Of a stretch of DNA of 36,177 nt, positions 7,188 to 19,770 are shown in pieces. The DNA lies in the NCBI GenBank assembly GCA_963934935.1, contig CAWWAV010000001.1, positions 1-36,177 of the forward strand, given 5' to 3'. How positions within the stretch are numbered: position 1 is the first letter of the stretch; every line of letters starts with the position of its first letter. Both the position numbers and the translations under genes were made by a program. The notes below the pieces were generated by a model. The model was not told where the DNA came from. It worked only from the letters and a program-made list of their open reading frames with translations, and did not search any database. The stretch comes from an uncultured Anaerolineales bacterium. GTDB taxonomy: Bacteria > Chloroflexota > Anaerolineae > Anaerolineales > UBA11657.

Positions 7188-7796
7188 ATGACTCGTATAT
7201 TGCTTGTGCGTCACGCGGAGAATAATTATACGCAGACTGGCAAATTAGCTGGTTGGATTAAAGGCGTACACTTAAATGAGGTTGGCAGATTGCAGTCTGC
7301 TACACTAGCTGATAATCTAGCTATATACCCAATTAAGTGTATCTACTCCAGTCCACTTGTCCGAGCACTAGAAACCGCTAGGCCTATTGCAGCTGCCAAG
7401 AATCTTAATGTATTGAAATGTACCCAAATAGGTGAAGTACGATATGGTCAATGGCAGGGTAAAAGTCTGCGTGTGTTGCGTCGGAGAAAATTGTGGAATC
7501 AGATTCAGAATGTACCATCTTTATCCAGTTTTCCAGACGGAGAATCAATTCGATATGCACAGAGTCGTGCTGTAGGTGCGGTTGAAAACATAGTTGTCAA
7601 ACATCCAAAATCTTGCGTTGCATTAGTGTCTCATGCCGATGTAATCAAAATGATTTTGGCTCACTACATGGGTCTTGCTTTAGATTTCTATCAGCGTATT
7701 GTTGTAGACACGGCGTCAATATCTGAATTGTATATATCATATGATGGAGTGAAGGTGATCAGAATCAATCAAACAACTAAGGTGTCTATCAAATAG
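7188..7796 (+). CDS. Histidine-phosphatase (phosphoglycerate-mutase-like) superfamily protein, MSMEG_4193-type context
   Basis: RHG-type catalytic motif LLVRHAEN and distal SHADVIK. It is the first gene of the phosphatase/DUF3090/kinase-like trio. Confidence 0.8.
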   Translation: MTRILLVRHAENNYTQTGKLAGWIKGVHLNEVGRLQSATLADNLAIYPIKCIYSSPLVRALETARPIAAAKNLNVLKCTQIGEVRYGQWQGKSLRVLRRRKLWNQIQNVPSLSSFPDGESIRYAQSRAVGAVENIVVKHPKSCVALVSHADVIKMILAHYMGLALDFYQRIVVDTASISELYISYDGVKVIRINQTTKVSIK

Positions 7797-7809
7797 AGAA
7801 TTTACTCTA

Positions 7810-8340
7810 ATGTTAATTGAAATAAAACCAGCAGATCATTTGGTAGCTTCATGTGTAGGAAAACCTGGTGATAGAACATTCTATATTCAAGCTGCTCGAG
7901 AAGATGAAATACTGACAATTTTGTGTGAGAAATTTCAGGTTCAGCAATTGGCAGGTGGTATACGGCGATTTGTTAAGCAATTGAGCGAAAAACATCCTCA
8001 TCTGGAGACTAGTACTTTGGTAGAGTCTGATCCTGATTTGGTTCTCAAGCGACCAATTGAACCTTTGTTCCGTGCAGGTGAGATTGGTATAGGTTATGAT
8101 GAGGAGAGTGAGTTGATGGTTCTAATTGCACAAGAATTGGGAACAGAACCACAAGAAGATAATCATCAAGATGAAGCAGAGACGGTTACAGCACGGATAT
8201 GGGCTACTTGCTTGCAGATGTTACAAATGGCTGATTATGGAGAAAAACAAGCATTAAGTGGTCGACCCATATGTGGCAATTGCATGAAGCCGATCGATAC
8301 TGAAGGCCATTTTTGTCCCAAGAGTAATGGACACAAATAA
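7810..8340 (+). CDS. DUF3090-family protein (uncharacterised)
   Basis: 176 aa. N-terminal PGDRTFYIQA region and C-terminal Cys/His knuckle CGNCMKPIDTEGHFCPKSNGH, recalled as typical of DUF3090/TIGR03847. Assigned from memory, not by search. Confidence 0.65.
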   Translation: MLIEIKPADHLVASCVGKPGDRTFYIQAAREDEILTILCEKFQVQQLAGGIRRFVKQLSEKHPHLETSTLVESDPDLVLKRPIEPLFRAGEIGIGYDEESELMVLIAQELGTEPQEDNHQDEAETVTARIWATCLQMLQMADYGEKQALSGRPICGNCMKPIDTEGHFCPKSNGHK

Positions 8341-9064
8341 TATAGAAGTTGCTGCTGTGAACAACGCACTAACTGTATTGCGGTCAGGCGAGGTCACATT
8401 AAAGGGCATTTTTCAAGTGGGATCCAACCATAGTTTTCTTGTTGAAATCAAGTTACAAAGAGAATCTTTAGAGGCAGTATACAAGCCAATAAAAGGTGAG
8501 AAACCTCTGTGGGATTTCCCTTCTGGAACTTTGGCTAAGAGAGAGGTTGCTGCATACTTGATAAGTGAAGCTCTTGGTTGGGGTTTGGTGCCTCCTACCG
8601 TTTTGCGAAACGGTCCATATGGGTTAGGGTCTGTACAGTTATTAGTCGACTTTGCTCCTGATGGACACTTTTTCAATTTTACCGATATAGAGAAGGAAAT
8701 TTGTCGTAGTGTGGCAGCGTTTGACTATGTGATCAACAATGCCGACCGAAAAGGTGGACATATTGTCAGATCAAACAACGGTACCATACAGTTAATTGAC
8801 CATGGTGTATGTTTCCACTGTGAAGAAAAATTACGTACAGTTTTATGGGATTTTGCCGGGGAAAGATTGTCTGAACGCATCTGTTCAGACATCAGAGATT
8901 TGGCTGTATCTATCAATGTATCTGGAAAACTAAGGGACAAGCTTAGTCAATTGCTTAGCATGTCCGAAATTAAAGCCTTGTCAGGCAGAGCCACTGATAT
9001 TGTTGCTTCTGGTTGTTTGCCACAACCGGGCTTGGATTACAATTATCCTTGGCCTATACTCTAG
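8327..9064 (+). CDS. SCO1664-family protein, PI3/PI4-kinase-like fold (uncharacterised)
   Basis: 245 aa. Kinase-like catalytic loop NNADRKGGHIV and metal-binding IDHGVCF. Overlaps the DUF3090 gene by 14 nt. Confidence 0.65.
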   Translation: MDTNNIEVAAVNNALTVLRSGEVTLKGIFQVGSNHSFLVEIKLQRESLEAVYKPIKGEKPLWDFPSGTLAKREVAAYLISEALGWGLVPPTVLRNGPYGLGSVQLLVDFAPDGHFFNFTDIEKEICRSVAAFDYVINNADRKGGHIVRSNNGTIQLIDHGVCFHCEEKLRTVLWDFAGERLSERICSDIRDLAVSINVSGKLRDKLSQLLSMSEIKALSGRATDIVASGCLPQPGLDYNYPWPIL

Positions 9065-9101
9065 AAAATGAGATATCAATAGCGTATTACAAACAAGAAC
9101 G

Positions 9102-9701
9102 ATGCACATAAAAGCACTAATTTTTGATTTTGGCGGTGTTCTAATGCGAACAGTGGATCAGACTCCGCGTCGCCGTTGGGAGATTCGTTATGGGCTTCCT
9201 AAGCTTGGTCTTGCGAAGCTAGTATTTGACAATCCGGTGGCAAGACAGGCAACTATCGGTGATGCACAAAGTTCTGATATCTGGAACTATGTTGGTCTTG
9301 AACTGGGTTTGTCAAATAGTGAACTGACAGATCTAGAAAGTGATTTCTGGAAAGGCGACAAAATAAACATTGCTCTTGTAGATTATGTTAGGAATCATAG
9401 TGTGGCATATCGTCCTTGTATTCTTAGCAATGCTTGGCCAGATGCCCGTGATTTATTCGATTCTATTACGGAGTTGAAAATTTTTGAAGAAATTATAATT
9501 TCTGCTGAAGTCGGGATGGAAAAGCCTGATAGCAGTATTTTTTTGTATGCTTGTGACCAAATCGGAGTGGCTGCCTCAAACGCTGTTTTTGTGGATGACA
9601 TGGTAGAAAATGTTGATGCAGCAATCGATCTAGGTATGCATGGGATATTATTTGAAAATACAGCGCAGACGCTGACTGATCTTAACAAACTTGTTGGGTA
9701 A
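9102..9701 (+). CDS. HAD superfamily hydrolase (subfamily IA-like)
   Basis: Motif I ALIFDFGGVLM, motif II ILSNA, K in MEKPD, motif IV VFVDDMVENVDAA. Confidence 0.8.
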   Translation: MHIKALIFDFGGVLMRTVDQTPRRRWEIRYGLPKLGLAKLVFDNPVARQATIGDAQSSDIWNYVGLELGLSNSELTDLESDFWKGDKINIALVDYVRNHSVAYRPCILSNAWPDARDLFDSITELKIFEEIIISAEVGMEKPDSSIFLYACDQIGVAASNAVFVDDMVENVDAAIDLGMHGILFENTAQTLTDLNKLVG

Positions 9702-9761
9702 CAATACTAGCGTCTATAACATATTGCGAAATTGATATATATTTAGGGTGTTTTAATCTCC

Positions 9762-10334
9762 ATGTGTAATGAAAACCAAATCGTATTAGGTGTGGTAACT
9801 GATTCGCATGTACCAGAACGAATGAAATCAATACCTGAATCAGCTATACAGTGTTTCTATCAGAACGATGTTACAACCATATTGCATGCAGGGGACATAT
9901 GCAATTCTCGTGCACTCACACAATTGGAAAAAGTTGCTCCTGTAATTGCTGTGCGAGGCAATCGAGATATATGGTCGAGTACTGGACGCAGTTTGCCATT
10001 GAGTTTAGTGGTCGAATTTGGTGGAGTCAAAATAGGTCTTACGCATGGACATGGTGGTTTATGGCAGTACTTTTACGAAAAGGTGCTCTATTATACTGTT
10101 GGGTTCTCTTATTCTCGGTATTTCCATAGGTTACATAATGAATTTGCAAACAGTGTTCGTGTAATAGTTTTTGGTCATACTCATCGAATGGTTAATAAAT
10201 GGGTTGATGATAGACTGTTGTTTAATCCAGGTTCTCTTGGGCCTGAATATTATGATTGTAATGGCCCATCAGTGGGAATTTTACGGATAATTGATGGTAG
10301 TATATCTGCGGAAGTATTACCTGTGGGCTATTGA
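9762..10334 (+). CDS. Metallophosphoesterase, YfcE/MJ0936-like
   Basis: Calcineurin-like motifs GVVTDSH, HAGDI, VRGNRD, LTHGH and VFGHTH. Confidence 0.8.
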   Translation: MCNENQIVLGVVTDSHVPERMKSIPESAIQCFYQNDVTTILHAGDICNSRALTQLEKVAPVIAVRGNRDIWSSTGRSLPLSLVVEFGGVKIGLTHGHGGLWQYFYEKVLYYTVGFSYSRYFHRLHNEFANSVRVIVFGHTHRMVNKWVDDRLLFNPGSLGPEYYDCNGPSVGILRIIDGSISAEVLPVGY

Positions 10335-10335
10335 G

Positions 10336-10364
10336 TTGACCTTATTGTATCTATGTGATAACAT
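10336..10364 (+). promoter_or_regulatory. Putative sigma-70-type promoter of the his operon (TTGACC-N17-TGaTAACAT)
   Basis: -35 TTGACC at 10336-10341, a 17-nt spacer, then an extended -10 TG-a-TAACAT at 10356-10364. The predicted TSS is about 10370-10372, next to the leader ATG. Confidence 0.4.
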
Positions 10365-10372
10365 GGGCGACA

Positions 10373-10417
10373 ATGTTTATTAAAGTAATTCATCATCATA
10401 GGAGAATACCCACGTAA
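10373..10417 (+). CDS. Putative his operon leader peptide MFIKVIHHHRRIPT
   Basis: A 14-codon ORF with three consecutive CAT His codons (10391-10399) followed by AGG AGA. It lies between the promoter-like element and a strong terminator directly upstream of hisG. No SD. Confidence 0.5.
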   Translation: MFIKVIHHHRRIPT

Positions 10418-10458
10418 TCGGACGCGGCGGGCTAGGCCCCTATTAAATTATTGATTTC

Positions 10459-10494
10459 ACACCTACTCAGCGTCTCGGGTAGGTGTTTTTTTTT
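10459..10494 (+). terminator. Intrinsic terminator / attenuator in the his leader
   Basis: A 10-bp stem ACACCTACTC / GGGTAGGTGT (one G-U) with the 8-nt loop AGCGTCTC, followed by 9 consecutive T. It ends 10 nt before the hisG ATG. Confidence 0.7.
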
Positions 10495-10504
10495 GGGAGA
10501 TTAT

Positions 10505-11518
10505 ATGCAACATACAGAAATTAGACTTGGATTGCCAAGCAAAGGTAGGCTTGAAAGTGGCTCACTGGACTTTCTCAGTAGTTGTGGGCTTCAAGTACAC
10601 AAACCAAATCCTCGCCAGTATCAGGCGACAATACCAGTTGTGCCTGGTCTTAGGGTTATATTCCAAAGACCGGGAGATATTGTTGTGGGAGTAAGGAATG
10701 GGAGTCTCGATTTTGGTATTACCGGTTTGGATATCGTGTTAGAACAGATGGAACTAAGTGATGCCATAGTAATTTTGCATGATGAGCTGGGATTTGGTCG
10801 TTGTACTTTGCAAATTGCAGTTCCAGATGAGTGGACCGAGGTGCAATCATTAAATGACTTAGGCAATTACGCTAAGACTATCCCTGACAGATTAAGAGTG
10901 GCAACCAAGTATCCGAGTTTGACAAGGGAGTTTTTGATTGAAAATGGATTGCCTGATTGTGACCTAATTAGTGCTGAGGGTACACTAGAAGTCGCTCCTA
11001 CTATTGGTTATGCTGATGTTATAGCTGACTTGGTGTCTTCTGGTCAGACCTTGCGTGATAATAGGTTGCGGACTCTTGACAATGGTAATATTCTTCTATC
11101 CCAAGCTGCGTTGATTGGAAATAGTGATAGTCTGCACACCAGATCATCTGTGTTGAAAGTAGCTCGCCACGTATTGGAATTAGCAGAAGCTTACTTGCGT
11201 GCAGAAAAATATTGTACGGTTGTTGCAAACATGCGCGAGGAATCGCCAGAAGCTGTTGCACACAAAATGTTTTCTGAGATCAACTTAGGTGGATTACAGG
11301 GTCCAACAATCTCTCGAGTGATTACGCCTGGCGATGGGGATAATATGTGCTCTGTAGAGGTGGTTGTGCTTAAAGACAAATTAGTCGAAGTAATACATGC
11401 TTTGCGCAGTATTGGCGGAAGTGGAGTAGTCGTTACACCTGTTAGTTATGTCTTTGAAGAAGAACCAGAACGATATGAGGCTTTGCTAGAAAAATTAGGA
11501 CGTAAAGATCATGATTGA
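10505..11518 (+). CDS. hisG: ATP phosphoribosyltransferase, long form with C-terminal regulatory domain
   Basis: Motifs RLGLPSKGRL and ADLVSSGQTLRDNRL, plus a roughly 90-aa C-terminal HisG_C-like extension. ATG 10505 has SD GGGAGA; the ORF-track TTG at 10451 would run through the terminator. Confidence 0.9.
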   Translation: MQHTEIRLGLPSKGRLESGSLDFLSSCGLQVHKPNPRQYQATIPVVPGLRVIFQRPGDIVVGVRNGSLDFGITGLDIVLEQMELSDAIVILHDELGFGRCTLQIAVPDEWTEVQSLNDLGNYAKTIPDRLRVATKYPSLTREFLIENGLPDCDLISAEGTLEVAPTIGYADVIADLVSSGQTLRDNRLRTLDNGNILLSQAALIGNSDSLHTRSSVLKVARHVLELAEAYLRAEKYCTVVANMREESPEAVAHKMFSEINLGGLQGPTISRVITPGDGDNMCSVEVVVLKDKLVEVIHALRSIGGSGVVVTPVSYVFEEEPERYEALLEKLGRKDHD

Positions 11519-12836
11519 AATCATCGAGGATTTGCAGGTAGCGAAAAGCACAATTCTCCACAGAAGTTATAAGCCTACTGATTATCCGGATCATGTATTA
11601 AGCGGAGTTGAGAAAATCTTCGGAGATGGTGTTTCTCCTGAAGATGCTGTTGCACGTATCCTTTCTGATGTACGAGACAATGGAGATGTTGCACTTCGAT
11701 CATGGTCTGAACGTATAGATGGCATTGTGCCAGACCCATTTCAAGTTACCCAAAACGATTTGAGTGCAGGACGCGAATTTATTTCAGCTGAAACAATACA
11801 GGCTATGGAATTAGCGTTGGATCGTATACGTACTTTTCACAGCTTGCAGCCAGTATCTGATTGGGAAACTAAAGAATTAGGCGGGATGATGGGCCAACGC
11901 ATGATTCCATTGGAGAGAGTAGGGGTTTATGTGCCAAGCGGTACTGCTTCTCTACCATCTTCTTTGCTTATGGCAGCCATTCCGGCTAAGGTTGCCGGTG
12001 TTCAGGAAATTATTGTTTGTACACCACCTGGAAAAGAAGGCAATCAAGTTGCAGGCGTAATATTAGCCGCAGCTCATATGCTGGGTATAGAGAAGGTTTA
12101 TCAATTGGGGGGTGCTCAAGCAATCGCTGCTATGGCTTATGGTACTGAAACAGTACCGCGTGTAGACAAAATTGTTGGTCCTGGGAATATATTTGTCACA
12201 TTAGCTAAACAGCAAGTATTTGGTCAGGTGGGTATAGACGGATTGTTTGGCCCAACCGAGACAGTTATTGTTGCTGATGAAGCTGCCAATCCGGAGTGGG
12301 TAGCGGCAGATTTGCTTGCGCAAGCAGAACATGATGTACTAGCTACAGCAATTCTGATTACTCCGTCGTTACAGTTGGCACAGTTAGTTAAAGCGGCCAT
12401 CACAGACAAAATAGTCACTTTAAAGCGGAAGAAAATAGTGGAACAGTCACTTATAGATCGAGGTGGAATAGTCATCGTTCCTGATATTGAATCTGCAGTA
12501 TCTATTGCTGACGAATATGCACCGGAACATCTGTGTCTTTATCTAGATGATGCTGATCAATGGGCAAACAGTGTTCAGAATGCCGGTTGTCTTTTTGTTG
12601 GACAATATTCTTGCGAGGTTATGGTTGATTATGTTGCTGGACCCAATCACATTCTTCCAACCGGAGGAACAGCCAGATTTTCATCGCCATTAAATGTGCT
12701 GGATTTCATCAAAATAATGAGTGTTGTTACCCTAGATGAAAAGACTTCCAATTCACTTATAGAGCCAGCTGCAAAGATTGCGTTGGCCGAGTTGCTCGAT
12801 GCACATGCTCTTGCGGCTCTAGAAAGAAAACCGTAG
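11511..12836 (+). CDS. hisD: Histidinol dehydrogenase
   Basis: Motifs VGPGNIFV and LLAQAEHD, and typical length. The ATG overlaps the hisG stop (ATGATTGA). Confidence 0.95.
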   Translation: MIEIIEDLQVAKSTILHRSYKPTDYPDHVLSGVEKIFGDGVSPEDAVARILSDVRDNGDVALRSWSERIDGIVPDPFQVTQNDLSAGREFISAETIQAMELALDRIRTFHSLQPVSDWETKELGGMMGQRMIPLERVGVYVPSGTASLPSSLLMAAIPAKVAGVQEIIVCTPPGKEGNQVAGVILAAAHMLGIEKVYQLGGAQAIAAMAYGTETVPRVDKIVGPGNIFVTLAKQQVFGQVGIDGLFGPTETVIVADEAANPEWVAADLLAQAEHDVLATAILITPSLQLAQLVKAAITDKIVTLKRKKIVEQSLIDRGGIVIVPDIESAVSIADEYAPEHLCLYLDDADQWANSVQNAGCLFVGQYSCEVMVDYVAGPNHILPTGGTARFSSPLNVLDFIKIMSVVTLDEKTSNSLIEPAAKIALAELLDAHALAALERKP

Positions 12837-12852
12837 ACAATAAACACTATTT

Positions 12853-13983
12853 ATGAAGACCTCAACTCCAAACACAACCGGCGGCACGAATCCCACTAGT
12901 ATGTTACGTAGCACAGTACGTGCTATAGAGCCTTATGTGCCTATATTGCCATTCGAAGTCTTGGCAGATCGTCTAGAACGTCCTATTGAGGAGATTATTA
13001 AACTCGATGCAAATGAAAATCTATATGGTCCCAGTCCGTTAGTGCGTGATGCTCTAGCTGATTTGGATTTTCCACACATCTATCCTGATCCCGAGAATCG
13101 CGCACTTCGTAACGCCCTTTCCGATTTTACAGGTGTTCCTTCCGAAAACATATTTGCTGGTGCAGGAGCTGACGAGATCATCGATCTAACTATGCGATTG
13201 TTCATAGACCAGGGTGACAACATAATTGATTGTCCGCCAACATTTGGTATGTACTCGTTTGATGCAGCTGTGAATGGAGCTGAGACTATCGTCATAGAGC
13301 GCAAAGATGATTTCACTCTTGACCTAGAAGCAATTGTAGAAGCTGTATCGGTATATTCGCCAAAGTTGTTATTTTTAACTTCTCCAAACAATCCAGATGG
13401 AGGTCTTATATCAGATGAAGAATTGCGCACTTTACTAGCATTACCAATTATTGTAATTCTGGATGAAGCATATATTGAATTTGCTGGTATTGAAAACTCT
13501 CGTATCGATTGGGTATTGGAACATGAAAACTTGATAGTTCTAAGGACTTTTAGTAAGTGGGCTGGTTTGGCTGGTCTGAGGGTAGGTTACGGCGCATTTT
13601 CTGTAAGATTGTTAAAAGAGCTTTGGAAGATAAAGCAACCCTATAATGTTAGCGTTGCCGCAACTGAAGCAGCGCTGGTTTCGTTAGATGATAGTGTCAA
13701 CCTTTTACAAGTAGTTTCGGAAATCAGGTCGGAACGTAAGCGTTTATCTCAGATGCTTAGTGGATTGCCATTCGTATTTCCTTATCCAAGCCACGGTAAT
13801 TTTGTGCTTTGTCAGGTGAAAGGCATTAGTGCTTTGGAACTACAGCAAGCCTTGAGTGCAGCAGGTATTCTTGTTCGTTATTTTGATAAACCCAGATTAC
13901 GGGATCATATTCGGATTTCGGTAGGACTTCCGCAGCATACTGATGTTTTGGAGACAATATTGTCTAGGATTTCCACCGAGTGA
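12853..13983 (+). CDS. hisC: Histidinol-phosphate aminotransferase
   Basis: Motifs LDANENLYGPSP and SPNNPDG, and the PLP-lysine motif TFSKWAGLAGLRVGY. The start could instead be ATG 12901. Confidence 0.9.
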   Translation: MKTSTPNTTGGTNPTSMLRSTVRAIEPYVPILPFEVLADRLERPIEEIIKLDANENLYGPSPLVRDALADLDFPHIYPDPENRALRNALSDFTGVPSENIFAGAGADEIIDLTMRLFIDQGDNIIDCPPTFGMYSFDAAVNGAETIVIERKDDFTLDLEAIVEAVSVYSPKLLFLTSPNNPDGGLISDEELRTLLALPIIVILDEAYIEFAGIENSRIDWVLEHENLIVLRTFSKWAGLAGLRVGYGAFSVRLLKELWKIKQPYNVSVAATEAALVSLDDSVNLLQVVSEIRSERKRLSQMLSGLPFVFPYPSHGNFVLCQVKGISALELQQALSAAGILVRYFDKPRLRDHIRISVGLPQHTDVLETILSRISTE

Positions 13984-14040
13984 ATGAATAATTGTGTAAG
14001 TGAAAAACCACCATATAAAAGAGGTTAATGGAGGCAATTA

Positions 14041-14628
14041 ATGCGACAAGCTACTGTGAATAGGAAAACTTCTGAGACTACAATCGAGATTGCTCTAAAT
14101 ATAGAGGGTAGTGGTAAGCATAATATATCGACTGGCATAGGATTTTTAGATCATATGCTTACTCATATTGCTGTCCACGGTTTGTTTGATCTTAACATCA
14201 ATACTAAGGGTGATCTAGAGGTTGATGTGCACCATACCATAGAGGACACTGCGCTTGTGTTGGGGCAAGCCTTTGACCAGGCTTTGGGAGAACGCAAGGG
14301 GATAATGCGAATGGGAACAGCTTTTGTACCTATGGATGAGGCGTTGGCGAACGTAGTAATTGATTTGTCAGGTCGACCGTATACTGTTATGCAGGCTCAA
14401 TGGCATACCTCAACTATAGGAGCTTTACCCACTAGTTTGATCAAACACTTTTTTGAATCTTTGTCGGTTAGTATGCGAGCGAACATTCATGCAAGGGTGC
14501 TTTATGGAATTGATGATCATCATCAGGTTGAAGCGCTTTTCAAAGCTCTGGCATTAGCCCTGGATACTGCAACTCAGTTAGATGATCGAAGGATGAATAT
14601 AGTTCCCAGTACTAAAGGTAGTCTGTGA
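14041..14628 (+). CDS. hisB: Imidazoleglycerol-phosphate dehydratase (monofunctional, no phosphatase domain)
   Basis: 195 aa with [15 protein letters not shown] and [21 protein letters not shown] upstream. Confidence 0.95.
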
Positions 14629-14678
14629 CTATGGATCAGAAACTACATATATTGATTTACGAGGGGAAATAACTTATC

Positions 14679-15290
14679 TTGAAAAGTCATATTGCATTAA
14701 TTGATCATGGTGTAGGCAATCTGCGCTCAGTAGAAAAGGCTTTGGCTGCAGTTGGTGCAAATGTATCTCTGACGCGAGATCCGGATGTGATAGTTTCAGC
14801 AGATAAGCTAGTGCTGCCTGGTGTGGGGGCCTTTGGTGATTGTATGAATGGATTACGTGAGAGCGGCACTCTGGAACTTGTGCGGTCTTTGGCCGTAGAA
14901 AGACCGTTTTTAGGAATATGCGTCGGTATGCAAATGTTATTTGAAACTAGTGATGAAATGGGTAGTCATAGGGGGTTAGGTTTGCTCCCGGGATTTGTTA
15001 CTAGGTTTAAGGATAGTGACATTCGCATACCGCACACAGGATGGAATCAATTGGAGATCGCTATCGAACATCCCTTGTTGGAAGGTATATACACCGGAAG
15101 TTATGCGTACTTTAATCATAGTTATTTCTGCACACCGACTAATTTGAAAGATGTGTTGTCGTATACTGAGTATGGAGCTAAATTTTGCTCAATTATTGGC
15201 CGTGATCGTTTGTATGGGATTCAATGTCATCCTGAAAAGAGCCAAGATATTGGGTTACAGATTTTGCGTAATTTTGTAGAAAAAGGATAA
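14679..15290 (+). CDS. hisH: Imidazole glycerol phosphate synthase, glutamine amidotransferase subunit
   Basis: Motifs IALIDHGVGNL, nucleophile elbow LGICVGMQ, and CHPEKS. TTG start with GAGGGGA SD 9 nt upstream. Confidence 0.9.
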   Translation: MKSHIALIDHGVGNLRSVEKALAAVGANVSLTRDPDVIVSADKLVLPGVGAFGDCMNGLRESGTLELVRSLAVERPFLGICVGMQMLFETSDEMGSHRGLGLLPGFVTRFKDSDIRIPHTGWNQLEIAIEHPLLEGIYTGSYAYFNHSYFCTPTNLKDVLSYTEYGAKFCSIIGRDRLYGIQCHPEKSQDIGLQILRNFVEKG

Positions 15291-15295
15291 CATCG

Positions 15296-16033
15296 ATGAC
15301 AGAGTTTACAGTCTATCCGGCTATTGATTTGCGTAATGGTACAGTGGTAAGGTTGAGACAGGGAGATCCTGATCAACAAACAACGTACTCTACTGATCCG
15401 CTTAATACTGCCAAAGGTTGGGTGAATTCAGGAGCAGATTGGTTACATGTGGTGAGCTTGGATGGTGCCTTTGGCGATTCGGGTTTTGCTAACATGAAGG
15501 CTTTGGCCCAAGTAATAGAATCTGGAGCTCGAGTACAGTTTGGAGGTGGACTGCGTGATTTAGATTCGATTCAACATGTACTTGATTTGGGAGTAAGCCG
15601 GGTAGTTTTAGGAACCGTTGCAGTAACCAGTCCTCAAATTGTTGATACAGCCCTAGCTTTGTTTGGTTCAGAAAAAATTGCGATTGGTATTGATGCCCGC
15701 AATGGGGTAGTGAAAGTGAAGGGCTGGCAGGAAGAGACAACATATACAGCGGTGCAACTGGCCGAACGTTTAAAGATTCAGGGTGTAAGATGGATGGTGT
15801 TCACAGATATATCCCGTGATGGGGTTGGTACTGGTCTAAATCTAGAAGCGACTATCTCACTGGCTGACAGAACTGGATTAAACGTAATTGCTTCTGGGGG
15901 TGTGAATACATCATCGGATGTGCTCGACGCCCAATCATCTGGACTTGCTGGAGCAATAGTTGGTCGTGCACTTTATGAAGGCAGGATTGATCTTGATCAG
16001 TTGTTGGACAATGTTAGGAAAAGTAAATGTTAG
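15296..16033 (+). CDS. hisA: ProFAR isomerase (1-(5-phosphoribosyl)-5-[(5-phosphoribosylamino)methylideneamino]imidazole-4-carboxamide isomerase)
   Basis: Motifs [20 protein letters not shown] and IVGRALYEG. Confidence 0.9.
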
Positions 16034-16806
16034 CCAAACGAATTATCCCTTGTCTTGATGTAAAAGATGGTCGTGTGGTAAAGGGTGTCAACTTTGTTAA
16101 TTTGCGTGATGCAGGTGACCCAGTTGAACAAGCACGCATTTACGATCGAATGGGTGCAGACGAACTTGTATTTTTGGATATTTCTGCAACTTATCGGGGA
16201 CATCAGACAGTGATTGATATAGTTCGTTCCGTGGCCGACCAAGTATTTATGCCACTTACTGTCGGTGGTGGTATAAGGACCGTCAGTGATATGCGTGATC
16301 TTCTTCTGGCTGGTGCTGATAAGGTGAGTGTTAATTCGGCGGCGCTAGCCAATCCAGAACTGCTTGTTGATGCTTCAGAGCGTTTTGGTAGTCAATGTAT
16401 CGTCCTTGCGATTGATGCAAGGGCAACAACGAACGACGACAGTGTATTAAGTGCACAAAAATGGGAAGTATTTGTTAGTGGAGGACGTGAAAATACCGGA
16501 ATCGATGTGCTGGAATGGGCAGAGCGCGGTGTGTCTTTAGGAGCAGGTGAGATATTGCTCACGAGTATGAATACTGATGGAGTAATGGATGGTTTCGATA
16601 TGGAATTAACTCACACGGTTGCAAATCTTGTCAATGTTCCTGTGATAGCTAGTGGTGGAGCTGGAAAAACTTCGCATTTTGCTGAAATATTGGGAGACGG
16701 GTGTGCAGCGGCAGCCCTTGCTGCCTCTGTGTTTCATGACGAAATATTGACGATATCTGAAGTTAAACAATTCTTATCCGAAGCTGGTATTGCAGTGAGG
16801 TTGTAA
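16027..16806 (+). CDS. hisF: Imidazole glycerol phosphate synthase, cyclase subunit
   Basis: Motifs [31 protein letters not shown] and ASGGAG. Overlaps hisA by 7 nt. Confidence 0.95.
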
Positions 16807-16808
16807 AC

Positions 16809-17123
16809 ATGGAAAATCTCAAATTTGACGCGAATGGTTTGATCACCGCTGTTGTGCAAGATGATGCAGAAGGTGAAGTTCTAATGGTTGCCTGGATGAA
16901 TGCTAAGGCAATTAGATTAACCAAAGAGACAGGCGAAGCACATTTTTGGAGTCGGAGTCGCGAAGAAATTTGGCGTAAAGGATCAACTTCAGGGAACGTC
17001 ATGAAAGTAGTCAAATTATTGGTTGATTGTGACCAAGACACTATTCTTGTGCAAGTTAATCCAAGTGGCCCGGCTTGTCATACTGGAGAAGTGTCCTGTT
17101 TTTTTCAGGAGCTACGCGATTGA
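16809..17123 (+). CDS. hisI: Phosphoribosyl-AMP cyclohydrolase (stand-alone)
   Basis: 104 aa with GLITAVVQD, WSRSR, DCDQDTILVQV and GPACHTGEVSCF. Confidence 0.9.
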   Translation: MENLKFDANGLITAVVQDDAEGEVLMVAWMNAKAIRLTKETGEAHFWSRSREEIWRKGSTSGNVMKVVKLLVDCDQDTILVQVNPSGPACHTGEVSCFFQELRD

Positions 17124-17764
17124 ATAGCTTTCGAAAGCCTGTAATAAAGAAATTTCTGCGGGATTTTGCCACCATCCAAGTGGGCTTTGCTTTTTTTGCT
17201 TTTGCAATTGCTATTGTAATTCGTGCGAACATTGGAGCCACTTCGTGGGCAGTTTTAGAAGTTGCACTTGCAGGAATGTTTAACATCACTCCAGGTACAG
17301 CTACGGTCATGGTTGCTGCGACTGTGCTTTTGCTAGCACTTACTTTGCGGGAGCCAATTGGTTGGGGTACTGTAGCTAACATTATGAGCATAGGTCCCTG
17401 GTTGGATTTGTTTCTGTCGTTGATACCAGAAGTCAACGCTAATTTACCTTTACAATTGTTATTTGTGGCTGTAGGTGTAAGTTCTATGAGTTTGGGTAGT
17501 GCGATATATATTGGAGTTAATGCAGGAGCTGGACCACGTGATAGTTTGATGATGGCTATTGCTCGTACCACTCCACTAGATGTGCGCACCGCTCGGGGAA
17601 TCATTGAATCAACAGCAGTGCTTATTGGCTGGATGTTAGGTGGTCCATTAGGAGTAGGTACTATATTGTTTGCAATACTAATTGGGCCTGGTGTACAACT
17701 TGCTTTTCGTTTATTTAACATGGAAACATATGCTCGAAAGAATCTAAAGCAATCTAGTCCCTAA
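17120..17764 (+). CDS. YczE/DUF6198-like polytopic membrane protein embedded in the his operon
   Basis: About 6 TM segments. Motifs IGATSWAVLEVAL and GAGPRDSLMMAIAR resemble the YczE (COG2364) family as recalled. Proposed TTG start at 17120 overlaps the hisI TGA (TTGA), with AGGAG 8 nt upstream. Confidence 0.65.
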   Translation: MNSFRKPVIKKFLRDFATIQVGFAFFAFAIAIVIRANIGATSWAVLEVALAGMFNITPGTATVMVAATVLLLALTLREPIGWGTVANIMSIGPWLDLFLSLIPEVNANLPLQLLFVAVGVSSMSLGSAIYIGVNAGAGPRDSLMMAIARTTPLDVRTARGIIESTAVLIGWMLGGPLGVGTILFAILIGPGVQLAFRLFNMETYARKNLKQSSP

Positions 17765-17784
17765 ATGGAATAAGGTGAACAAAT

Positions 17785-18063
17785 ATGAGTTTTCTTTACG
17801 AACTACAGCAAATTATTGAGCAACGGAAATTGCATCCGATTGATAGCTCATATACTACTAGCTTATTTAATGCTGGTGAAGATGAAATTGCTAAGAAGAT
17901 TGGTGAGGAGGCTGTAGAGCTGATATTAGCTGTAAAAGGCCAAGGGGATGAACGTGTTGTCTCAGAAACCGCTGATCTTCTGTATCATGTAATTGTGCTA
18001 TTGGCGCAATGCGGATTGACATTAGAGTCGGTAGAAAAGGAACTGCAGCGGAGAAAGCGTTGA
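17785..18063 (+). CDS. hisE: Phosphoribosyl-ATP pyrophosphohydrolase (stand-alone)
   Basis: 92 aa MazG-like: SYTTSLF, KIGEEAVELILA and ETADLLYHVIVLL. Confidence 0.9.
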   Translation: MSFLYELQQIIEQRKLHPIDSSYTTSLFNAGEDEIAKKIGEEAVELILAVKGQGDERVVSETADLLYHVIVLLAQCGLTLESVEKELQRRKR

Positions 18064-19244
18064 GACACAATTTGTATCTTCTTGACATTGATAATGTATT
18101 GATATATCCGGGCGGTTACCGGGAATCATTTTCTCGCACAATCAATTACTTCATGCGGGCAATGGGATGGAAAGATAGTAATTCTCATCAGTCAGCAGCA
18201 CAGGTGTTCGAAGCTCATGGTATTACCAATGAATGGGATATGTGCGCTATATGCTTATCTGGATTGTTTGTAGCGGTTGCTGGGAAGATACCTGACGTAA
18301 GTTTTTCTGAATCAGTGTTAGATGCTCTAGATATAGTGAAAACATCAGGAATTCCTAGGCAGGAAGTAAATTTCTCGCAGTTAGCACGTGAAGTAGCTAC
18401 GGATATAAAACCAAGCGAGACACATTTGCCGGCATTGGCTGCTTCGCGGGTGTTCAACAGAATTATTCGTTCGACTTGTGATCCAAAAGTCCATGACCCA
18501 ATTCGTGTGCTAATAGATCATATTTTGTCGAATGCTCGAGATATAGAGAAATCACGTACCATGTCGATATTTCAGAATTATGCGCTCGGTAGTGTGAATT
18601 TCGTAAAAACATATTCAATGCCATCACTTTTTGAGACTAGTTCTTTGATCGTTGAACATGATGTTCCAGTTTTATCAAGTAGTAATTGCGAAAACTTATT
18701 GTCGGCATCACTCAAAAAAGAAATCAGACCAGTTGTATTTACTGCTCGACCATCATTGGCCCCCAGAGGAGTTCATGACGAGGCACATTATTATTCTCCT
18801 GAAGCAGAGTTGGCGGTCGAATTAGTTGGATTAGAATCAATACCAATGATAGGGTCAGGAAGGACTGAATGGTTGGCTTGGGAGACTGGGGACGACCCAA
18901 ACAGTTTTATTAAGCCTGCTCTAATACATGCTTTAGCAGCCATTGCTGCTGCAATCTCAGAGGATGAAGTGTCTGGATTAATGGCTGCTAATACGTTTCT
19001 TAAAAAAGGAATATTGAGTGGTCCTTTGTCTGATTTAGTAGGGAAAGAGTTGTTCGTAACAGTTTTTGAGGATTCGGCGCGCAGCATAGAATCTGTTGGT
19101 GAAGTCTTAGGTTTATTGCGTGATTTTGACGTTAAAAGCTCTTTATATGCTAAGGGAATTGCTGTCGATTATGAAAAACGCAAGATGTTGTCTGCGGTAG
19201 GAGCAACTTTGTTTGATGATGTGAACGTCGCTATTACAAATTGA
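18060..19244 (+). CDS. HAD-like phosphatase-fold protein with a very large cap insertion (uncharacterised); last gene of the his operon
   Basis: Motif I LLDIDNVLI at residues 7-15 from the TTG 18060 start, motif II VVFTARPS, K in FIKPALIHALA, motif IV VFEDSARSIES. About 220 aa lie between motifs I and II. TTG overlaps the hisE TGA (TTGA), with GGAG 6 nt upstream. Confidence 0.6.
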   Translation: MRHNLYLLDIDNVLIYPGGYRESFSRTINYFMRAMGWKDSNSHQSAAQVFEAHGITNEWDMCAICLSGLFVAVAGKIPDVSFSESVLDALDIVKTSGIPRQEVNFSQLAREVATDIKPSETHLPALAASRVFNRIIRSTCDPKVHDPIRVLIDHILSNARDIEKSRTMSIFQNYALGSVNFVKTYSMPSLFETSSLIVEHDVPVLSSSNCENLLSASLKKEIRPVVFTARPSLAPRGVHDEAHYYSPEAELAVELVGLESIPMIGSGRTEWLAWETGDDPNSFIKPALIHALAAIAAAISEDEVSGLMAANTFLKKGILSGPLSDLVGKELFVTVFEDSARSIESVGEVLGLLRDFDVKSSLYAKGIAVDYEKRKMLSAVGATLFDDVNVAITN

Positions 19245-19245
19245 T

Positions 19246-19770
19246 TCATTGTACTCTCCAGTGTCCACGCCGCATTGGATTAATTGCCTCTGATGTTATA
19301 AAACATTTAGGATCTATTCTCGAAGCAATCTCTTCAATGTCTGACAAATCACGACGTTTTGCAATCACATTTACTTCAAGTACTCTACCATCTTTGCCAT
19401 GACCAATATATTCAGTGACGCCATAACCAGATTTGCGGAGGGATGCGGACATTTGATGGGTGTTTTCCGAAGTTACAATTCTTACATGGCTAAATCCTAT
19501 AGCAAGGCGCTCTTCCAGAGCCATTCCTACAAGTATGCCAGCCGAATACCCACCTGCATAAGCTACTATGCTATAGAAATTTTCTAGGTTTTCAAGCACT
19601 GATTTTATGACTACTATCCACATTAGTGCCTGACAGAATCCTACTAATGCACTTAACACCCGTTTGCGTTGTACTACTAGCATCACTCGTAAAGTGTCTA
19701 GAGCTATGTTTCCAACCCGAAGTGTGAATATTAGTAGTGACGTAGTGAAAACAGAATTTGTGGACAGCAT
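19246..19770 (-). CDS. UPF0316 / DUF2179-domain membrane protein (YebE-like)
   Basis: 174 aa with three N-terminal TM segments (LDTLRVMLVVQ motif) and a C-terminal DUF2179-like soluble domain (GVTEYIGHGKDG...EVNVIAKRRD). Confidence 0.75.
   Translation of the reverse strand: MLSTNSVFTTSLLIFTLRVGNIALDTLRVMLVVQRKRVLSALVGFCQALMWIVVIKSVLENLENFYSIVAYAGGYSAGILVGMALEERLAIGFSHVRIVTSENTHQMSASLRKSGYGVTEYIGHGKDGRVLEVNVIAKRRDLSDIEEIASRIDPKCFITSEAINPMRRGHWRVQ

What the first reader, a model, noticed from the sequence alone, without database searches (positions are those of the whole stretch)
18060..19244. Large-cap HAD-like protein translationally coupled to hisE: candidate for the missing histidinol-phosphate phosphatase
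Seen in sequence:
- The operon encodes every histidine step except histidinol-phosphate phosphatase. hisB here is a 195-aa dehydratase-only protein, and no PHP-type (HisJ/K) or IMPase-type (HisN) gene is in the operon.
- The last operon gene begins with a TTG that overlaps the hisE stop (TTGA), with GGAG 6 nt upstream.
- Its product shows the four HAD motifs in order: DIDNV at residues 9-13, VVFTARPS, FIKPAL, VFEDSARSIE.
- An unusually long insertion of about 220 aa lies between motifs I and II.

Established knowledge: HolPase is the most frequently non-orthologously displaced step of the pathway. It is known as the HAD HisB-N domain, PHP HisJ, IMPase-like HisN, and other HADs in some archaea.

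Inference: this protein is a new HolPase type, or another histidine-linked phosphatase.
Basis: partly seen in the sequence, partly recalled or inferred. Interest (0 to 1): 0.6.

Follow-up and report, generated by a model that had tools for sequence, protein, structure and literature searches.

The report
Likely missing histidine-pathway phosphatase, Chloroflexota
The last gene of this histidine operon encodes an unannotated phosphatase with an oversized lid that most likely performs the one histidine-synthesis step for which this bacterial order otherwise shows no enzyme; it is a distant, altered relative of phosphatases known to do this job in archaea.

Summary
Window 18060-19244 (+) is a real 394-aa gene. 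Its TTG start overlaps the hisE stop, all four HAD motifs are present, and a ~215-aa helical lid (cap) sits between motifs I and II. No Pfam or NCBIfam model matches it.

The family has 567 clusters at 50% identity. Among the genomes sampled it was found only in one Chloroflexota order.

- **Linkage:** in 62 of 79 genomes holding both genes, it lies directly after hisE.
- **Distribution:** it occurs in 80 of 96 histidine-pathway genomes and in 23 of 105 without the pathway.
- **Complementarity:** of the 16 pathway genomes lacking it, 10 carry a HisN-like IMPase, against 2 of the 80 that have it.
- **Coverage:** canonical phosphatases cover only 41 of the 96 pathway genomes.

It is not a wholly new type. 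Profile comparison (98.9%, E 2.6e-17) and fold comparison (Z 19.3 to Tt82) place it beside the archaeal toHisN/nmHisN HAD histidinol-phosphate phosphatases. Relatives of those sit between hisC and hisB in other Chloroflexota.

It differs in two ways: the lid is larger, and the critical lid Lys/Arg is replaced by an invariant Glu.

Best reading: histidinol-phosphate phosphatase, confidence about 0.6. Activity is untested. Its retention in genomes without the pathway is unexplained.

The parts
18060..19244 (+). Gene X: 394-aa HAD phosphatase with an expanded helical C1 lid (cap); last gene of the his operon
   Evidence: ORF and translation. 567 homologue clusters at 50% identity. AlphaFold2 mean pLDDT 96.3. 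dN/dS 0.18 against the same-genus orthologue.
18050..18053 (+). GGAG Shine-Dalgarno-like site, 6 nt upstream of the TTG start
   Evidence: Read directly from the sequence.
18060..18063 (+). TTGA: start codon of X overlapping the hisE stop codon (translational coupling)
   Evidence: Read directly. A relative has the equivalent ATGA overlap (L003: hisE 7726-8004, X 8001-9164).
18084..18098 (+). HAD motif I, DIDNV (D9 nucleophile, D11 acid/base)
   Evidence: D9 and D11 are invariant in 60 homologues and in all 61 genome-derived copies with that region.
18099..18725 (+). C1 lid (cap), about residues 14-222, nine helices. It holds the conserved lid residues Y20, R21, E51, E58-W59-D60, F171-Q172, G177, Y185 and D201.
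   Evidence: Alignment; secondary structure of the model; lid aligned to TIGR01548-like proteins by hhalign.
18117..18122 (+). Y20-R21, equivalent to fingerprint positions Y24-D25 of nmHisN (Arg in euryarchaeal and deltaproteobacterial homologues)
   Evidence: Profile alignments to 6iah and A2; fingerprint from PMC10804674.
18210..18212 (+). E51, an invariant Glu at the position where relatives carry Lys or Arg (nmHisN K56)
   Evidence: hhalign column; Tt82 and 1qyi alignments; E in 37 of 37 his-linked copies.
18231..18239 (+). E58-W59-D60 acidic lid motif, equivalent to the DWD motif of TIGR01548-like proteins (nmHisN E64 region)
18741..18755 (+). HAD motif II region, TARPS (T228, with invariant R230 shared with the TIGR01548-like proteins)
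18912..18917 (+). HAD motif III, K285-P286
   Evidence: Invariant.
19068..19073 (+). HAD motif IV, E337-D338
   Evidence: Invariant.
17785..18063 (+). hisE (phosphoribosyl-ATP pyrophosphohydrolase), the conserved upstream neighbour of X
   Evidence: PF01503 match, E 3.4e-22. Adjacent to X in 62 of 79 genomes holding both genes.
10451..18063 (+). his operon: hisG-D-C-B-H-A-F-I, a yczE-like gene, then hisE
   Evidence: Pfam and NCBIfam matches.

Best explanation
Gene X encodes a Mg2+-dependent HAD-superfamily phosphomonoesterase. D9 is the nucleophile and D11 the acid/base. T228 and K285 bind phosphate, and E337/D338 bind the metal. Its substrate pocket is closed by a large, nine-helix C1 lid.

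It most likely hydrolyses L-histidinol phosphate to L-histidinol. That is the one step of the pathway for which this operon, and most genomes of this Chloroflexota order, show no recognised enzyme.

It is translated coupled to hisE as the last cistron of the his operon. In evolutionary terms it is a lid-expanded offshoot of the toHisN/nmHisN (TIGR01548-like) HAD histidinol-phosphate phosphatases. The lid Tyr (Y20) and the acidic E-W-D motif, which in those enzymes contact the imidazole, are kept. The lid Lys/Arg is replaced by an invariant Glu (E51).

Shown: fold, motifs, homology, operon position, phyletic pattern. Inferred: substrate, and the roles of the lid residues.
For: **1. HAD enzyme.**
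- All four motifs are invariant in 60 homologues.
- The model is confident (mean pLDDT 96.3).
- The best structural matches are HAD phosphatases: 1qyi at Z 26.8 and Tt82/6iah at Z 19.3 with 233 of 240 residues aligned. Generic HAD-IA structures reach at most 14.9.

**2. Homology to known HolPases.**
- The X profile against Chloroflexota TIGR01548-like proteins gives hhalign probability 98.9%, E 2.6e-17, over 204 columns that include the lid.
- Those proteins match Tt82 at E 1.3e-36.
- In phylum family f21 they sit between hisC and hisB. That is the position of the characterised HolPase Nmar_1556 (PMC10804674).
- TIGR01548 is the NCBIfam model most often hit weakly by X members: 27 of 60, best E 7.9e-6.

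**3. Synteny.**
- In 37 of 60 fetched loci X directly follows hisE on the same strand, although X identity to the window is only 26-37%.
- Across the sample, 62 of 79 genomes with both genes have them adjacent.
- Linked copies lie in both deep halves of the X tree.

**4. Phyletic pattern in 201 genomes, at least 90% complete apart from the window's own 70% MAG.**
- X is in 80 of 96 his-pathway genomes and in 23 of 105 without the pathway.
- Of the 16 pathway genomes lacking X, 10 carry a high-scoring HisN-like IMPase (207-278 bits, plus one partial hit of 186 bits over 181 positions). Only 2 of the 80 with X do. Four carry HisJ.
- HisJ above cut-off plus HisN-like together cover only 41 of 96 pathway genomes. 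X covers 52 of the other 55.

**4b. Same-genus check.** A 93%-complete same-genus genome also lacks a HisJ hit above cut-off and a HisN-class IMPase.

**5.** The conserved lid residues are mostly acidic or aromatic (E51, E58, W59, D60, D201, Y20, Y185). That suits a cationic amino-imidazole substrate (inference).

**6.** Purifying selection: dN/dS 0.18.
Against: - No activity data exist for any member of the family.
- The most critical lid residue of nmHisN (K56; the alanine mutant loses about 3,900-fold in kcat/KM) is Lys or Arg in nmHisN, toHisN, Tt82, 1qyi and the Chloroflexota TIGR01548-like proteins. In X it is an invariant Glu.
- 23 of 103 carrier genomes show neither IGPD nor hisE. That reflects at least 4-7 independent losses of the pathway with X retained, and one such genome has a tandem duplicate. 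X can therefore be useful without histidine synthesis.
- In family f71 X is unlinked and lies next to tkt-rpiB. The his operon there holds a His_Phos_1 phosphatase, and HisJ is present in most of its genomes sampled.
- 26 of 80 his-pathway genomes with X also carry a HisJ-family protein above cut-off.
- The window's genome also holds a generic IMPase whose best NCBIfam match is HisN (143.7 bits, cut-off 275) and a GmhB-like HAD-IIIA.
- Genomes in the sample are related, so the counts overstate independence.
Confidence: 0.6

Rival explanations
1. X is a broader or dual-specificity phosphatase. It dephosphorylates histidinol phosphate but also a second metabolite, for example O-phosphoserine or a sugar phosphate. 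The second activity keeps it under selection in lineages that lost histidine synthesis.
For: - X is retained intact, with all catalytic residues, in 23 genomes lacking IGPD and hisE.
- No canonical serB was found in five genomes tested, both with and without the pathway.
- HisN-like IMPases, which X appears to replace, also occur in 10 genomes without the pathway.
- HisN-like IMPases were recently shown to act as phosphoserine phosphatases in other bacteria (PMC13759103).
- One homologue is fused to a MurQ-like SIS sugar-phosphate domain.
- In f71 X sits beside tkt-rpiB.
Against: - Copies in genomes without the pathway sit on long branches and vary more at lid positions (Q172, Y185, F171, S232). 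That suggests a change or relaxation of function after pathway loss, not one constant dual role.
- The acidic lid offers no obvious partner for a carboxylate or sugar phosphate apart from R21 (inference).
- nmHisN itself was strictly specific among ten substrates.
Confidence: 0.17
2. X is not the HolPase. It dephosphorylates a different compound, and its place at the end of the his operon reflects co-regulation or inherited gene order. Candidates are a pentose or PRPP-related phosphate, a nucleotide such as AICAR-related ZMP, or phosphoserine. The real HolPase would then be the generic IMPase, a PHP protein or the GmhB-like HAD.
For: - The key Lys/Arg of the characterised relatives is a Glu in X, so the fingerprint defined for that family is not met.
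- X is present in genomes without the pathway.
- An IMPase whose best family match is HisN is present in nearly every genome of the order, the window's included.
- his operons of this order carry other passengers (purH, yczE, proBA), so membership alone is not proof.
Against: - The generic IMPase occurs in 187 of 201 genomes, including lineages with no his genes. One example is a genus with 13 of 13 IMPase-positive genomes and 0 of 13 with IGPD. It therefore does not track the pathway.
- X tracks the pathway far better than HisJ or HisN: odds ratio 17.8, against 3.2 and 1.4.
- X is nearly exclusive with the HisN-like class within pathway genomes: 2 of 80 against 10 of 16.
- Its nearest characterised homologues are HolPases, and some are also his-embedded.
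Confidence: 0.2
3. X is a non-hydrolytic HAD protein, such as a phosphomutase or a regulatory ligand-binding protein that has lost turnover.
For: The best generic structural matches below the top two include beta-phosphoglucomutases at Z about 14. The lid is very large.
Against: - All catalytic residues are strictly conserved in every group.
- The two closest relatives are phosphatase-type proteins.
- The Z of about 14 to mutases is the generic HAD-IA level.
Confidence: 0.03

Closest known systems
toHisN (TON_0338, Thermococcus onnurineus) and its structural relative Tt82 (PDB 6IAH, T. thioreducens): monofunctional HAD histidinol-phosphate phosphatase
   Same: - HAD-IA core with a single helical C1 lid.
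- The fold match covers nearly the whole of Tt82: Z 19.3, rmsd 2.5 A, 233 of 240 residues.
- Shared lid motifs: Tyr after motif I, an acidic xWD/DD motif, F-x-x-x-(L/Y)-G, the T-x-R-P motif II with an invariant Arg, and K-P-x-P.
- Association with his genes.
   Different: - X is about 150 residues longer, and the extra helices lie inside the lid.
- X has Glu where toHisN/Tt82 have Arg (the nmHisN K56 position).
- P0001 gives no match to TIGR01548. Sequence identity is about 18%.
- I take the link between Tt82 and toHisN from the paper's statement on Thermococcales homologues and from my own recollection. It was not tested here.
nmHisN (Nmar_1556, Nitrosopumilus maritimus): characterised HAD HolPase with fingerprint Y24-D25-K56-E64 (PMC10804674)
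   Same: - One large helical insertion, nine helices in both.
- Embedded in a his gene cluster.
- Tyr and acidic fingerprint positions are conserved (Y20; E58/D60).
- X has Arg or His at the D25 position, as the euryarchaeal and deltaproteobacterial homologues do.
   Different: - The K56 position, the most critical one, is Glu in X.
- The operon position is after hisE, not between hisC and hisB.
Equivalence was inferred through Tt82 and the Chloroflexota TIGR01548-like proteins.
PDB 1QYI (Staphylococcus aureus Q8NW41, structural-genomics protein of unknown function, 380 residues)
   Same: - Best structural match: Z 26.8, 327 residues aligned, rmsd 3.1 A; Foldseek E 2.6e-8.
- Same overall size and an expanded lid.
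- Shares the NWD and YQEWYLGS lid motifs.
   Different: - 15% identity.
- It keeps Lys at the K56 position.
- No function is known.
- No his linkage was examined here.
Chloroflexota TIGR01548-like HADs (alignment A2), about 250-330 aa
   Same: - Same phylum.
- Clear profile homology, lid included.
- In family f21 they are embedded in the his operon.
- Some have intermediate lid insertions at the same site as X.
   Different: - They carry the Lys (K49 of A2).
- They are shorter.
- They lie between hisC and hisB.
- They were found outside the window's order, whereas X was found only inside it.
E. coli HisB-N (HAD-IIIA), P. aeruginosa paHisN (PA0335), PHP-type HisJ/HisK, IMPase-type HisN
   Same: Same proposed reaction. 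The first two are also HAD enzymes.
   Different: - The HAD types have unrelated lids, and the PHP and IMPase types have unrelated folds.
- X matches none of their models.

Membership tests
HAD superfamily phosphatase (Rossmannoid core, C1 cap) | Motif I DxDx(T/V), with the nucleophile Asp and the Asp+2 acid/base | tested here: met
   DIDNV at residues 9-13. D9 and D11 are invariant in 60 homologues.
HAD superfamily phosphatase (Rossmannoid core, C1 cap) | Motif II Thr/Ser, motif III Lys, motif IV acidic pair | tested here: met
   T228 is nearly invariant. K285, E337 and D338 are invariant.
HAD superfamily phosphatase (Rossmannoid core, C1 cap) | HAD fold with the lid inserted directly after motif I | tested here: met
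   AlphaFold2 model, mean pLDDT 96.3. All top structural matches are HAD proteins.
toHisN/nmHisN-type HAD HolPase (NCBIfam TIGR01548-like) | Scores above the TIGR01548 cut-off (140.2 bits) | tested here: not met
   P0001 has no hit. 27 of 60 family members hit only weakly, best E 7.9e-6.
toHisN/nmHisN-type HAD HolPase (NCBIfam TIGR01548-like) | Homology that extends into the specificity-defining lid | tested here: met
   hhalign probability 98.9%, E 2.6e-17, 204 columns including the lid. Z 19.3 to Tt82 over 233 of 240 residues.
toHisN/nmHisN-type HAD HolPase (NCBIfam TIGR01548-like) | Fingerprint Tyr (nmHisN Y24) | tested here: met
   Y20 is invariant and aligns with the Tyr of Tt82 and A2.
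toHisN/nmHisN-type HAD HolPase (NCBIfam TIGR01548-like) | Fingerprint Asp (nmHisN D25; Arg in euryarchaeal and deltaproteobacterial clusters, whose function is unproven) | tested here: inconclusive
   X has Arg (22 of 37 linked copies) or His (13 of 37). The paper leaves the Arg variant open.
toHisN/nmHisN-type HAD HolPase (NCBIfam TIGR01548-like) | Fingerprint Lys/Arg (nmHisN K56, the most critical residue) | tested here: not met
   The aligned position is E51, invariant in all 37 his-linked copies. No Lys or Arg is conserved at 49-53.
toHisN/nmHisN-type HAD HolPase (NCBIfam TIGR01548-like) | Fingerprint Glu/Asp (nmHisN E64) | tested here: met
   E58-W59-D60 aligns with the DWD motif of A2 and the DD of Tt82.
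toHisN/nmHisN-type HAD HolPase (NCBIfam TIGR01548-like) | Located in a his gene cluster | tested here: met
   Directly after hisE in 62 of 79 genomes holding both genes. The position differs from the hisC-hisB site of nmHisN.
toHisN/nmHisN-type HAD HolPase (NCBIfam TIGR01548-like) | Hydrolyses L-histidinol phosphate | not testable with these tools
   Needs an enzyme assay or genetic complementation.
HisB-N type HolPase (HAD-IIIA, TIGR01261/TIGR01656) | Matches the HAD-IIIA HisB-N models; short loop lids | tested here: not met
   No NCBIfam hit for P0001. The lid is a 215-aa helical C1 domain.
PHP-type HolPase (HisJ/HisK, TIGR01856) | PHP (beta/alpha)7-barrel domain | tested here: not met
   No Pfam or NCBIfam hit. 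The fold is HAD.
IMPase-type HolPase (HisN, TIGR02067) | Inositol-monophosphatase fold | tested here: not met
   No Pfam or NCBIfam hit. The fold is HAD.

The most novel reading that the evidence does not exclude
X is the principal histidinol-phosphate phosphatase of a whole Chloroflexota order. It uses a re-engineered lid in which the Lys/Arg essential in its archaeal relatives is replaced by Glu. That Glu may form a charge-swapped pair with R/H21, mirroring the D25-K56 pair of nmHisN. The same enzyme, or its fast-evolving descendants, has taken on a second substrate that keeps it in lineages that became histidine auxotrophs.
Probability: 0.25. Interest if true: 0.7.

Novelty: new variant of a known kind. 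Interest (0 to 1): 0.58.

Why it matters
Histidinol-phosphate phosphatase is the most frequent remaining gap in automated reconstruction of amino-acid biosynthesis. GapMind 2026 reports it missing in 42 of 208 prototrophs (PMC13759103).

In the sample here, recognised HolPase families cover only 41 of 96 histidine-pathway genomes of this order. This unannotated family, which has no Pfam or NCBIfam model and is named 'hypothetical protein' in nearly every public record listed, would close 52 of the remaining 55 gaps.

That would prevent false auxotrophy calls for a large, mostly uncultured group of marine, sediment and bioreactor Chloroflexota.

It also extends the 'archaeal' toHisN/nmHisN HAD lineage into bacteria. 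The variant has a much larger lid and lacks the residue thought most critical. This gives a direct test of how specificity is built in HAD lids.

Tried and rejected
- **Direct family searches.** Pfam and NCBIfam gave nothing for P0001. A six-frame TIGR01548 search of the window's genome did not pick up X.
- **Upstream HAD-IA gene (9102-9701) as an alternative HolPase.** Rejected. It accompanies the operon only in the same genus.
- **HisJ in the window's genome.** None was found, but the genome is 70% complete. The same-genus PHP protein scores 60 bits and fits other PHP models better.
- **The window genome's IMPase (143.7 bits to HisN).** It belongs to the generic class present in 187 of 201 genomes, including those without his genes.
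- **The window genome's HAD-IIIA on contig C80.** Best read as GmhB: 185 bits, above that model's cut-off.
- **Complementarity of X with HisJ.** Expected, but not seen: 26 of 80 against 4 of 16 within pathway genomes.
- **A conserved replacement gene downstream of hisE in genomes lacking X.** None is consistent.
- **X remnants in those loci.** None found.
- **Conserved neighbours of X in genomes without the pathway.** Conservation is only within families.
- **Literature searches.** Searches for 1QYI, Tt82 and TON_0338 gave nothing useful. No paper describing this family was found.
- **Residue-level inspection of the model's pocket.** Not possible, because model coordinates are not exposed to scripts.
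- **Complex prediction.** Not used; no protein partner is claimed.
Full report
**1. The observation**

Window 18060-19244 (+) is an open frame of 394 codons. It begins at a TTG whose last two bases are the first two of the hisE stop codon (TTGA at 18060-18063). GGAG lies at 18050-18053.

The frame is open back to an ATG at 18009, and some public gene calls use that start (411 aa). The family alignment favours the TTG. Homologues begin four to eight residues before the DxD motif, and the nearest diverged relative starts MKHEIYLLDID, opposite LRHNLYLLDID here. In that relative's locus the gene overlaps hisE by ATGA.

Upstream lie hisG, D, C, B (195 aa, IGPD domain only), H, A, F and I, then a YczE/DUF6198 membrane gene, then hisE. 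They are invariant or nearly so in 60 diverse homologues: D9, D11, T228, K285, E337, D338. dN/dS against the same-genus orthologue is 0.18.

**2. What the protein is**

No Pfam or NCBIfam model matches it, yet it is not an orphan. An exhaustive search found 567 clusters at 50% identity. Nearly all are 380-420 residues long. Where a public record names them, all but one are called 'hypothetical protein', and the named sources are Chloroflexi or Anaerolineae.

With the alignment, AlphaFold2 gives a confident model (mean pLDDT 96.3, pTM 0.92). It shows a Rossmann-like HAD core and nine helices inserted directly after motif I, that is a C1 lid of about 190-215 residues.

Two structural matches stand out:

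| Structure | Z | Aligned residues |
|---|---|---|
| 1QYI, a 380-residue Staphylococcus aureus protein of unknown function | 26.8 | 327 |
| 6IAH, phosphatase Tt82 of Thermococcus thioreducens | 19.3 | 233 of 240 |
| Ordinary HAD-IA phosphatases and mutases | at most 14.9 | - |

**3. Link to known histidinol-phosphate phosphatases**

A 2024 study (PMC10804674) characterised Nmar_1556 (nmHisN). This is a HAD enzyme encoded between hisC and hisB in Nitrosopumilus, and it proved to be a specific histidinol-phosphate phosphatase. The study tied it to the earlier Thermococcus onnurineus enzyme toHisN. It defined a lid fingerprint, Y24-D25-K56-E64, with these variants:
- toHisN has Arg and Asp at the last two positions.
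- Euryarchaeal and deltaproteobacterial homologues have Arg at position 25.

TIGR01548 is the NCBIfam model most often touched by X-family members, though weakly: 27 of 60, best E 7.9e-6.

Searching that model through the phylum found full-length TIGR01548-like proteins in other Chloroflexota families. In family f21 they lie between hisC and hisB, the Nitrosopumilus arrangement. An alignment of eleven of them (A2) matches Tt82 at E 1.3e-36. It matches the X profile with hhalign probability 98.9% and E 2.6e-17 over 204 columns, lid included.

Motifs shared between X and A2:
- Tyr after motif I
- G-x-x-x-(E/D)-W-D
- F-x-x-x-(L/Y)-G
- T-x-R-P, with an invariant Arg
- E-A-x-x-A
- K-P-x-P

Some A2 members have intermediate insertions at the same lid site where X is expanded. 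X is therefore a divergent, lid-expanded branch of the same lineage, not an independent invention.

**4. The difference that matters**

In the profile alignment, X's invariant E51 (in the motif F-E-A) falls on the invariant Lys of A2. Tt82 has Arg there and 1QYI has Lys. By position this is nmHisN K56, whose alanine mutant lost about 3,900-fold in kcat/KM.

No Lys or Arg is conserved at X positions 49-53. X therefore fails one of the four fingerprint positions and meets two: Y20, and E58/D60. At the fourth it carries Arg or His, as the unproven euryarchaeal cluster does.

One speculative reading is a charge-swapped pair, with R21-E51 in X standing for D25-K56 in nmHisN. I could not inspect model coordinates to test this.

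**5. Gene neighbourhood**

In a 250-genome sample of the phylum, X was found only in the window's own order: 8 of 23 there, 0 of about 227 elsewhere. In 200 further genomes of the order it is in 102, or 103 of 201 with the window's genome.

I fetched about 19 kb around 60 copies from 15 families. In 37 of them, from 14 of the 15 families, X directly follows hisE on the same strand. X identity to the window is only 26-37% in all of these except the same-genus copy (91%).

Using the coordinates of all hits, 62 of the 79 genomes holding both X and hisE have them adjacent. In the X tree, linked copies occupy both deep halves, so linkage is old. In the cultured Aggregatilinea lenta the homologue lies one gene from hisE but convergent to it.

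The exceptions are:
- family f71: all eight copies are unlinked and divergent from tkt-rpiB
- one genus of family f67
- a few single genomes

**6. Phyletic pattern **

Of the 201 genomes, 96 have IGPD and/or hisE. About half of the order appears to lack histidine synthesis.

| Family | In pathway genomes (of 96) | In genomes without the pathway (of 105) | Odds ratio |
|---|---|---|---|
| X | 80 | 23 | 17.8 |
| HisJ-family PHP, above cut-off | 30 | 13 | 3.2 |
| HisN-like IMPase (high class, incl. one partial hit) | 12 | 10 | 1.4 |

IMPase hits to the HisN model are bimodal. A generic class at or below 188 bits is present in 187 of 201 genomes, including lineages with no his genes. A high class at 207-278 bits is present in 21 genomes. 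HisN orthologues are already known from class Chloroflexia (PMC5516325).

Within pathway genomes, the high class is in 10 of the 16 that lack X but in only 2 of the 80 that have it. Four of the 16 have HisJ, in one case next to hisB (L112), and three have none of the three families.

HisJ plus HisN-like cover only 41 of 96 pathway genomes. X covers 52 of the remaining 55. The genomes are related, so the p-values overstate independence. The replacements nonetheless occur in several families and within genera.

**7. What argues against a dedicated HolPase**

- Twenty-three carriers lack both IGPD and hisE. On the tree this needs at least four, and more parsimoniously seven, independent events.
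- Those copies keep every catalytic residue. They sit on longer branches, vary more at lid positions (Q172, Y185, F171, S232) and include a tandem duplicate.
- HisN-like and HisJ proteins also persist in 10-13 genomes without the pathway. Persistence without the pathway is therefore not peculiar to X.
- It still shows that X, or its descendants, can serve another purpose.
- No canonical serB was found in five genomes tested. A phosphoserine role therefore cannot be excluded, although the acidic lid argues against a carboxylate substrate (inference).
- In f71 a His_Phos_1 phosphatase is embedded between hisF and hisI, and HisJ is present in most f71 genomes, so X is probably not the HolPase there.

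**8. The window's own genome**

It is a 1.48-Mb MAG in 332 contigs, 70% complete.
- It has no HisJ hit.
- It has a generic-class IMPase (143.7 bits).
- It has a HAD-IIIA that is best read as GmhB.
- It has no short TIGR01548-like protein.

The 93%-complete same-genus genome gives the same picture. X is the best HolPase candidate in this genus, but absence of alternatives cannot be proven.

**9. Verdict**

X is certainly a HAD phosphatase and certainly his-associated. It is probably the histidinol-phosphate phosphatase of most of this order (confidence about 0.6). This rests on homology to characterised HolPases, deep operon linkage and a gap-filling, HisN-exclusive distribution.

It is a new variant of a known kind, not a new type. 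The Lys-to-Glu change and the retention in genomes without the pathway are the open points. Enzyme assays and complementation would settle them.

Noticed in passing
window 17075-17764 (+), likely start near 17132: A YczE/DUF6198-like membrane protein gene sits inside the his operon between hisI and hisE. The same gene is next to hisE in families f1, f66 and f71 of the order (L046, L104, L105, L122, L123). No function or link to histidine is known.
   Followed up: partly
L116:3038-3628 (-) and L125:8516-9103 (+): In family f71 a 196-aa histidine-phosphatase-superfamily (His_Phos_1, phosphoglycerate-mutase-like) gene lies between hisF and hisI. It could be yet another non-orthologous HolPase candidate.
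   Followed up: partly
L115:8787-9503 (-): In one genome lacking X, a 238-aa PP2C/SpoIIE-type phosphatase gene directly follows hisE on the same strand.
   Followed up: no
L112:8253-9155 (+): In a genome lacking X, a HisJ-family PHP gene (153 bits) directly follows hisB and is convergent with hisE. This looks like local displacement of the phosphatase.
   Followed up: partly
L134, L136, L137, L138 (about 1360-2240 in each): Another Chloroflexota family (f21) carries a 250-aa TIGR01548-like HAD between hisC and hisB. This is the same arrangement as the characterised Nitrosopumilus HolPase Nmar_1556. It is a likely unannotated bacterial member of that HolPase family.
   Followed up: partly
L088:6835-8349 (+), L119:10312-11868 (-), and similar gaps in L089-L092, L094, L096: purH (AICAR transformylase/IMP cyclohydrolase) is inserted between hisF and hisI in families f73, f75 and f68. 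That fits recycling of the AICAR released by HisFH.
   Followed up: partly
L104:10418-12921 (-): In family f66, glutamate 5-kinase (AA_kinase+PUA) and an aldehyde-dehydrogenase-family gene (probably proA) are inserted between the yczE-like gene and hisE.
   Followed up: no
order-wide: About half of the high-quality genomes of this order (105 of 201) show neither IGPD nor hisE. This suggests widespread histidine auxotrophy, patchy within families and even within genera.
   Followed up: partly
P0206 (688 aa): One X homologue is fused, or was called as fused, to a C-terminal MurQ/GKRP-like SIS sugar-phosphate-binding domain.
   Followed up: no
L093:8001-9155 and 10327-11460 (+): Two diverged copies of X lie about 1.2 kb apart in a genome with no his pathway.
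   Followed up: no
L066:6334-9002 (-) and equivalents in L067-L073: In family f71, X is divergently adjacent to transketolase and ribose-5-phosphate isomerase B.
   Followed up: partly
window 19242-19248: The X stop codon (ends 19244) and the stop of the convergent DUF2179/UPF0316 gene (19246-19770, minus strand) are one base apart.
   Followed up: no
window 9102-10334 (+): A 199-aa HAD-IA hydrolase and a YfcE-type metallophosphoesterase lie just upstream of hisG on the same strand. The HAD-IA neighbours the operon only in the same genus. The metallophosphoesterase (YfcE) also lies upstream of hisG in a more distant relative's loci.
   Followed up: partly
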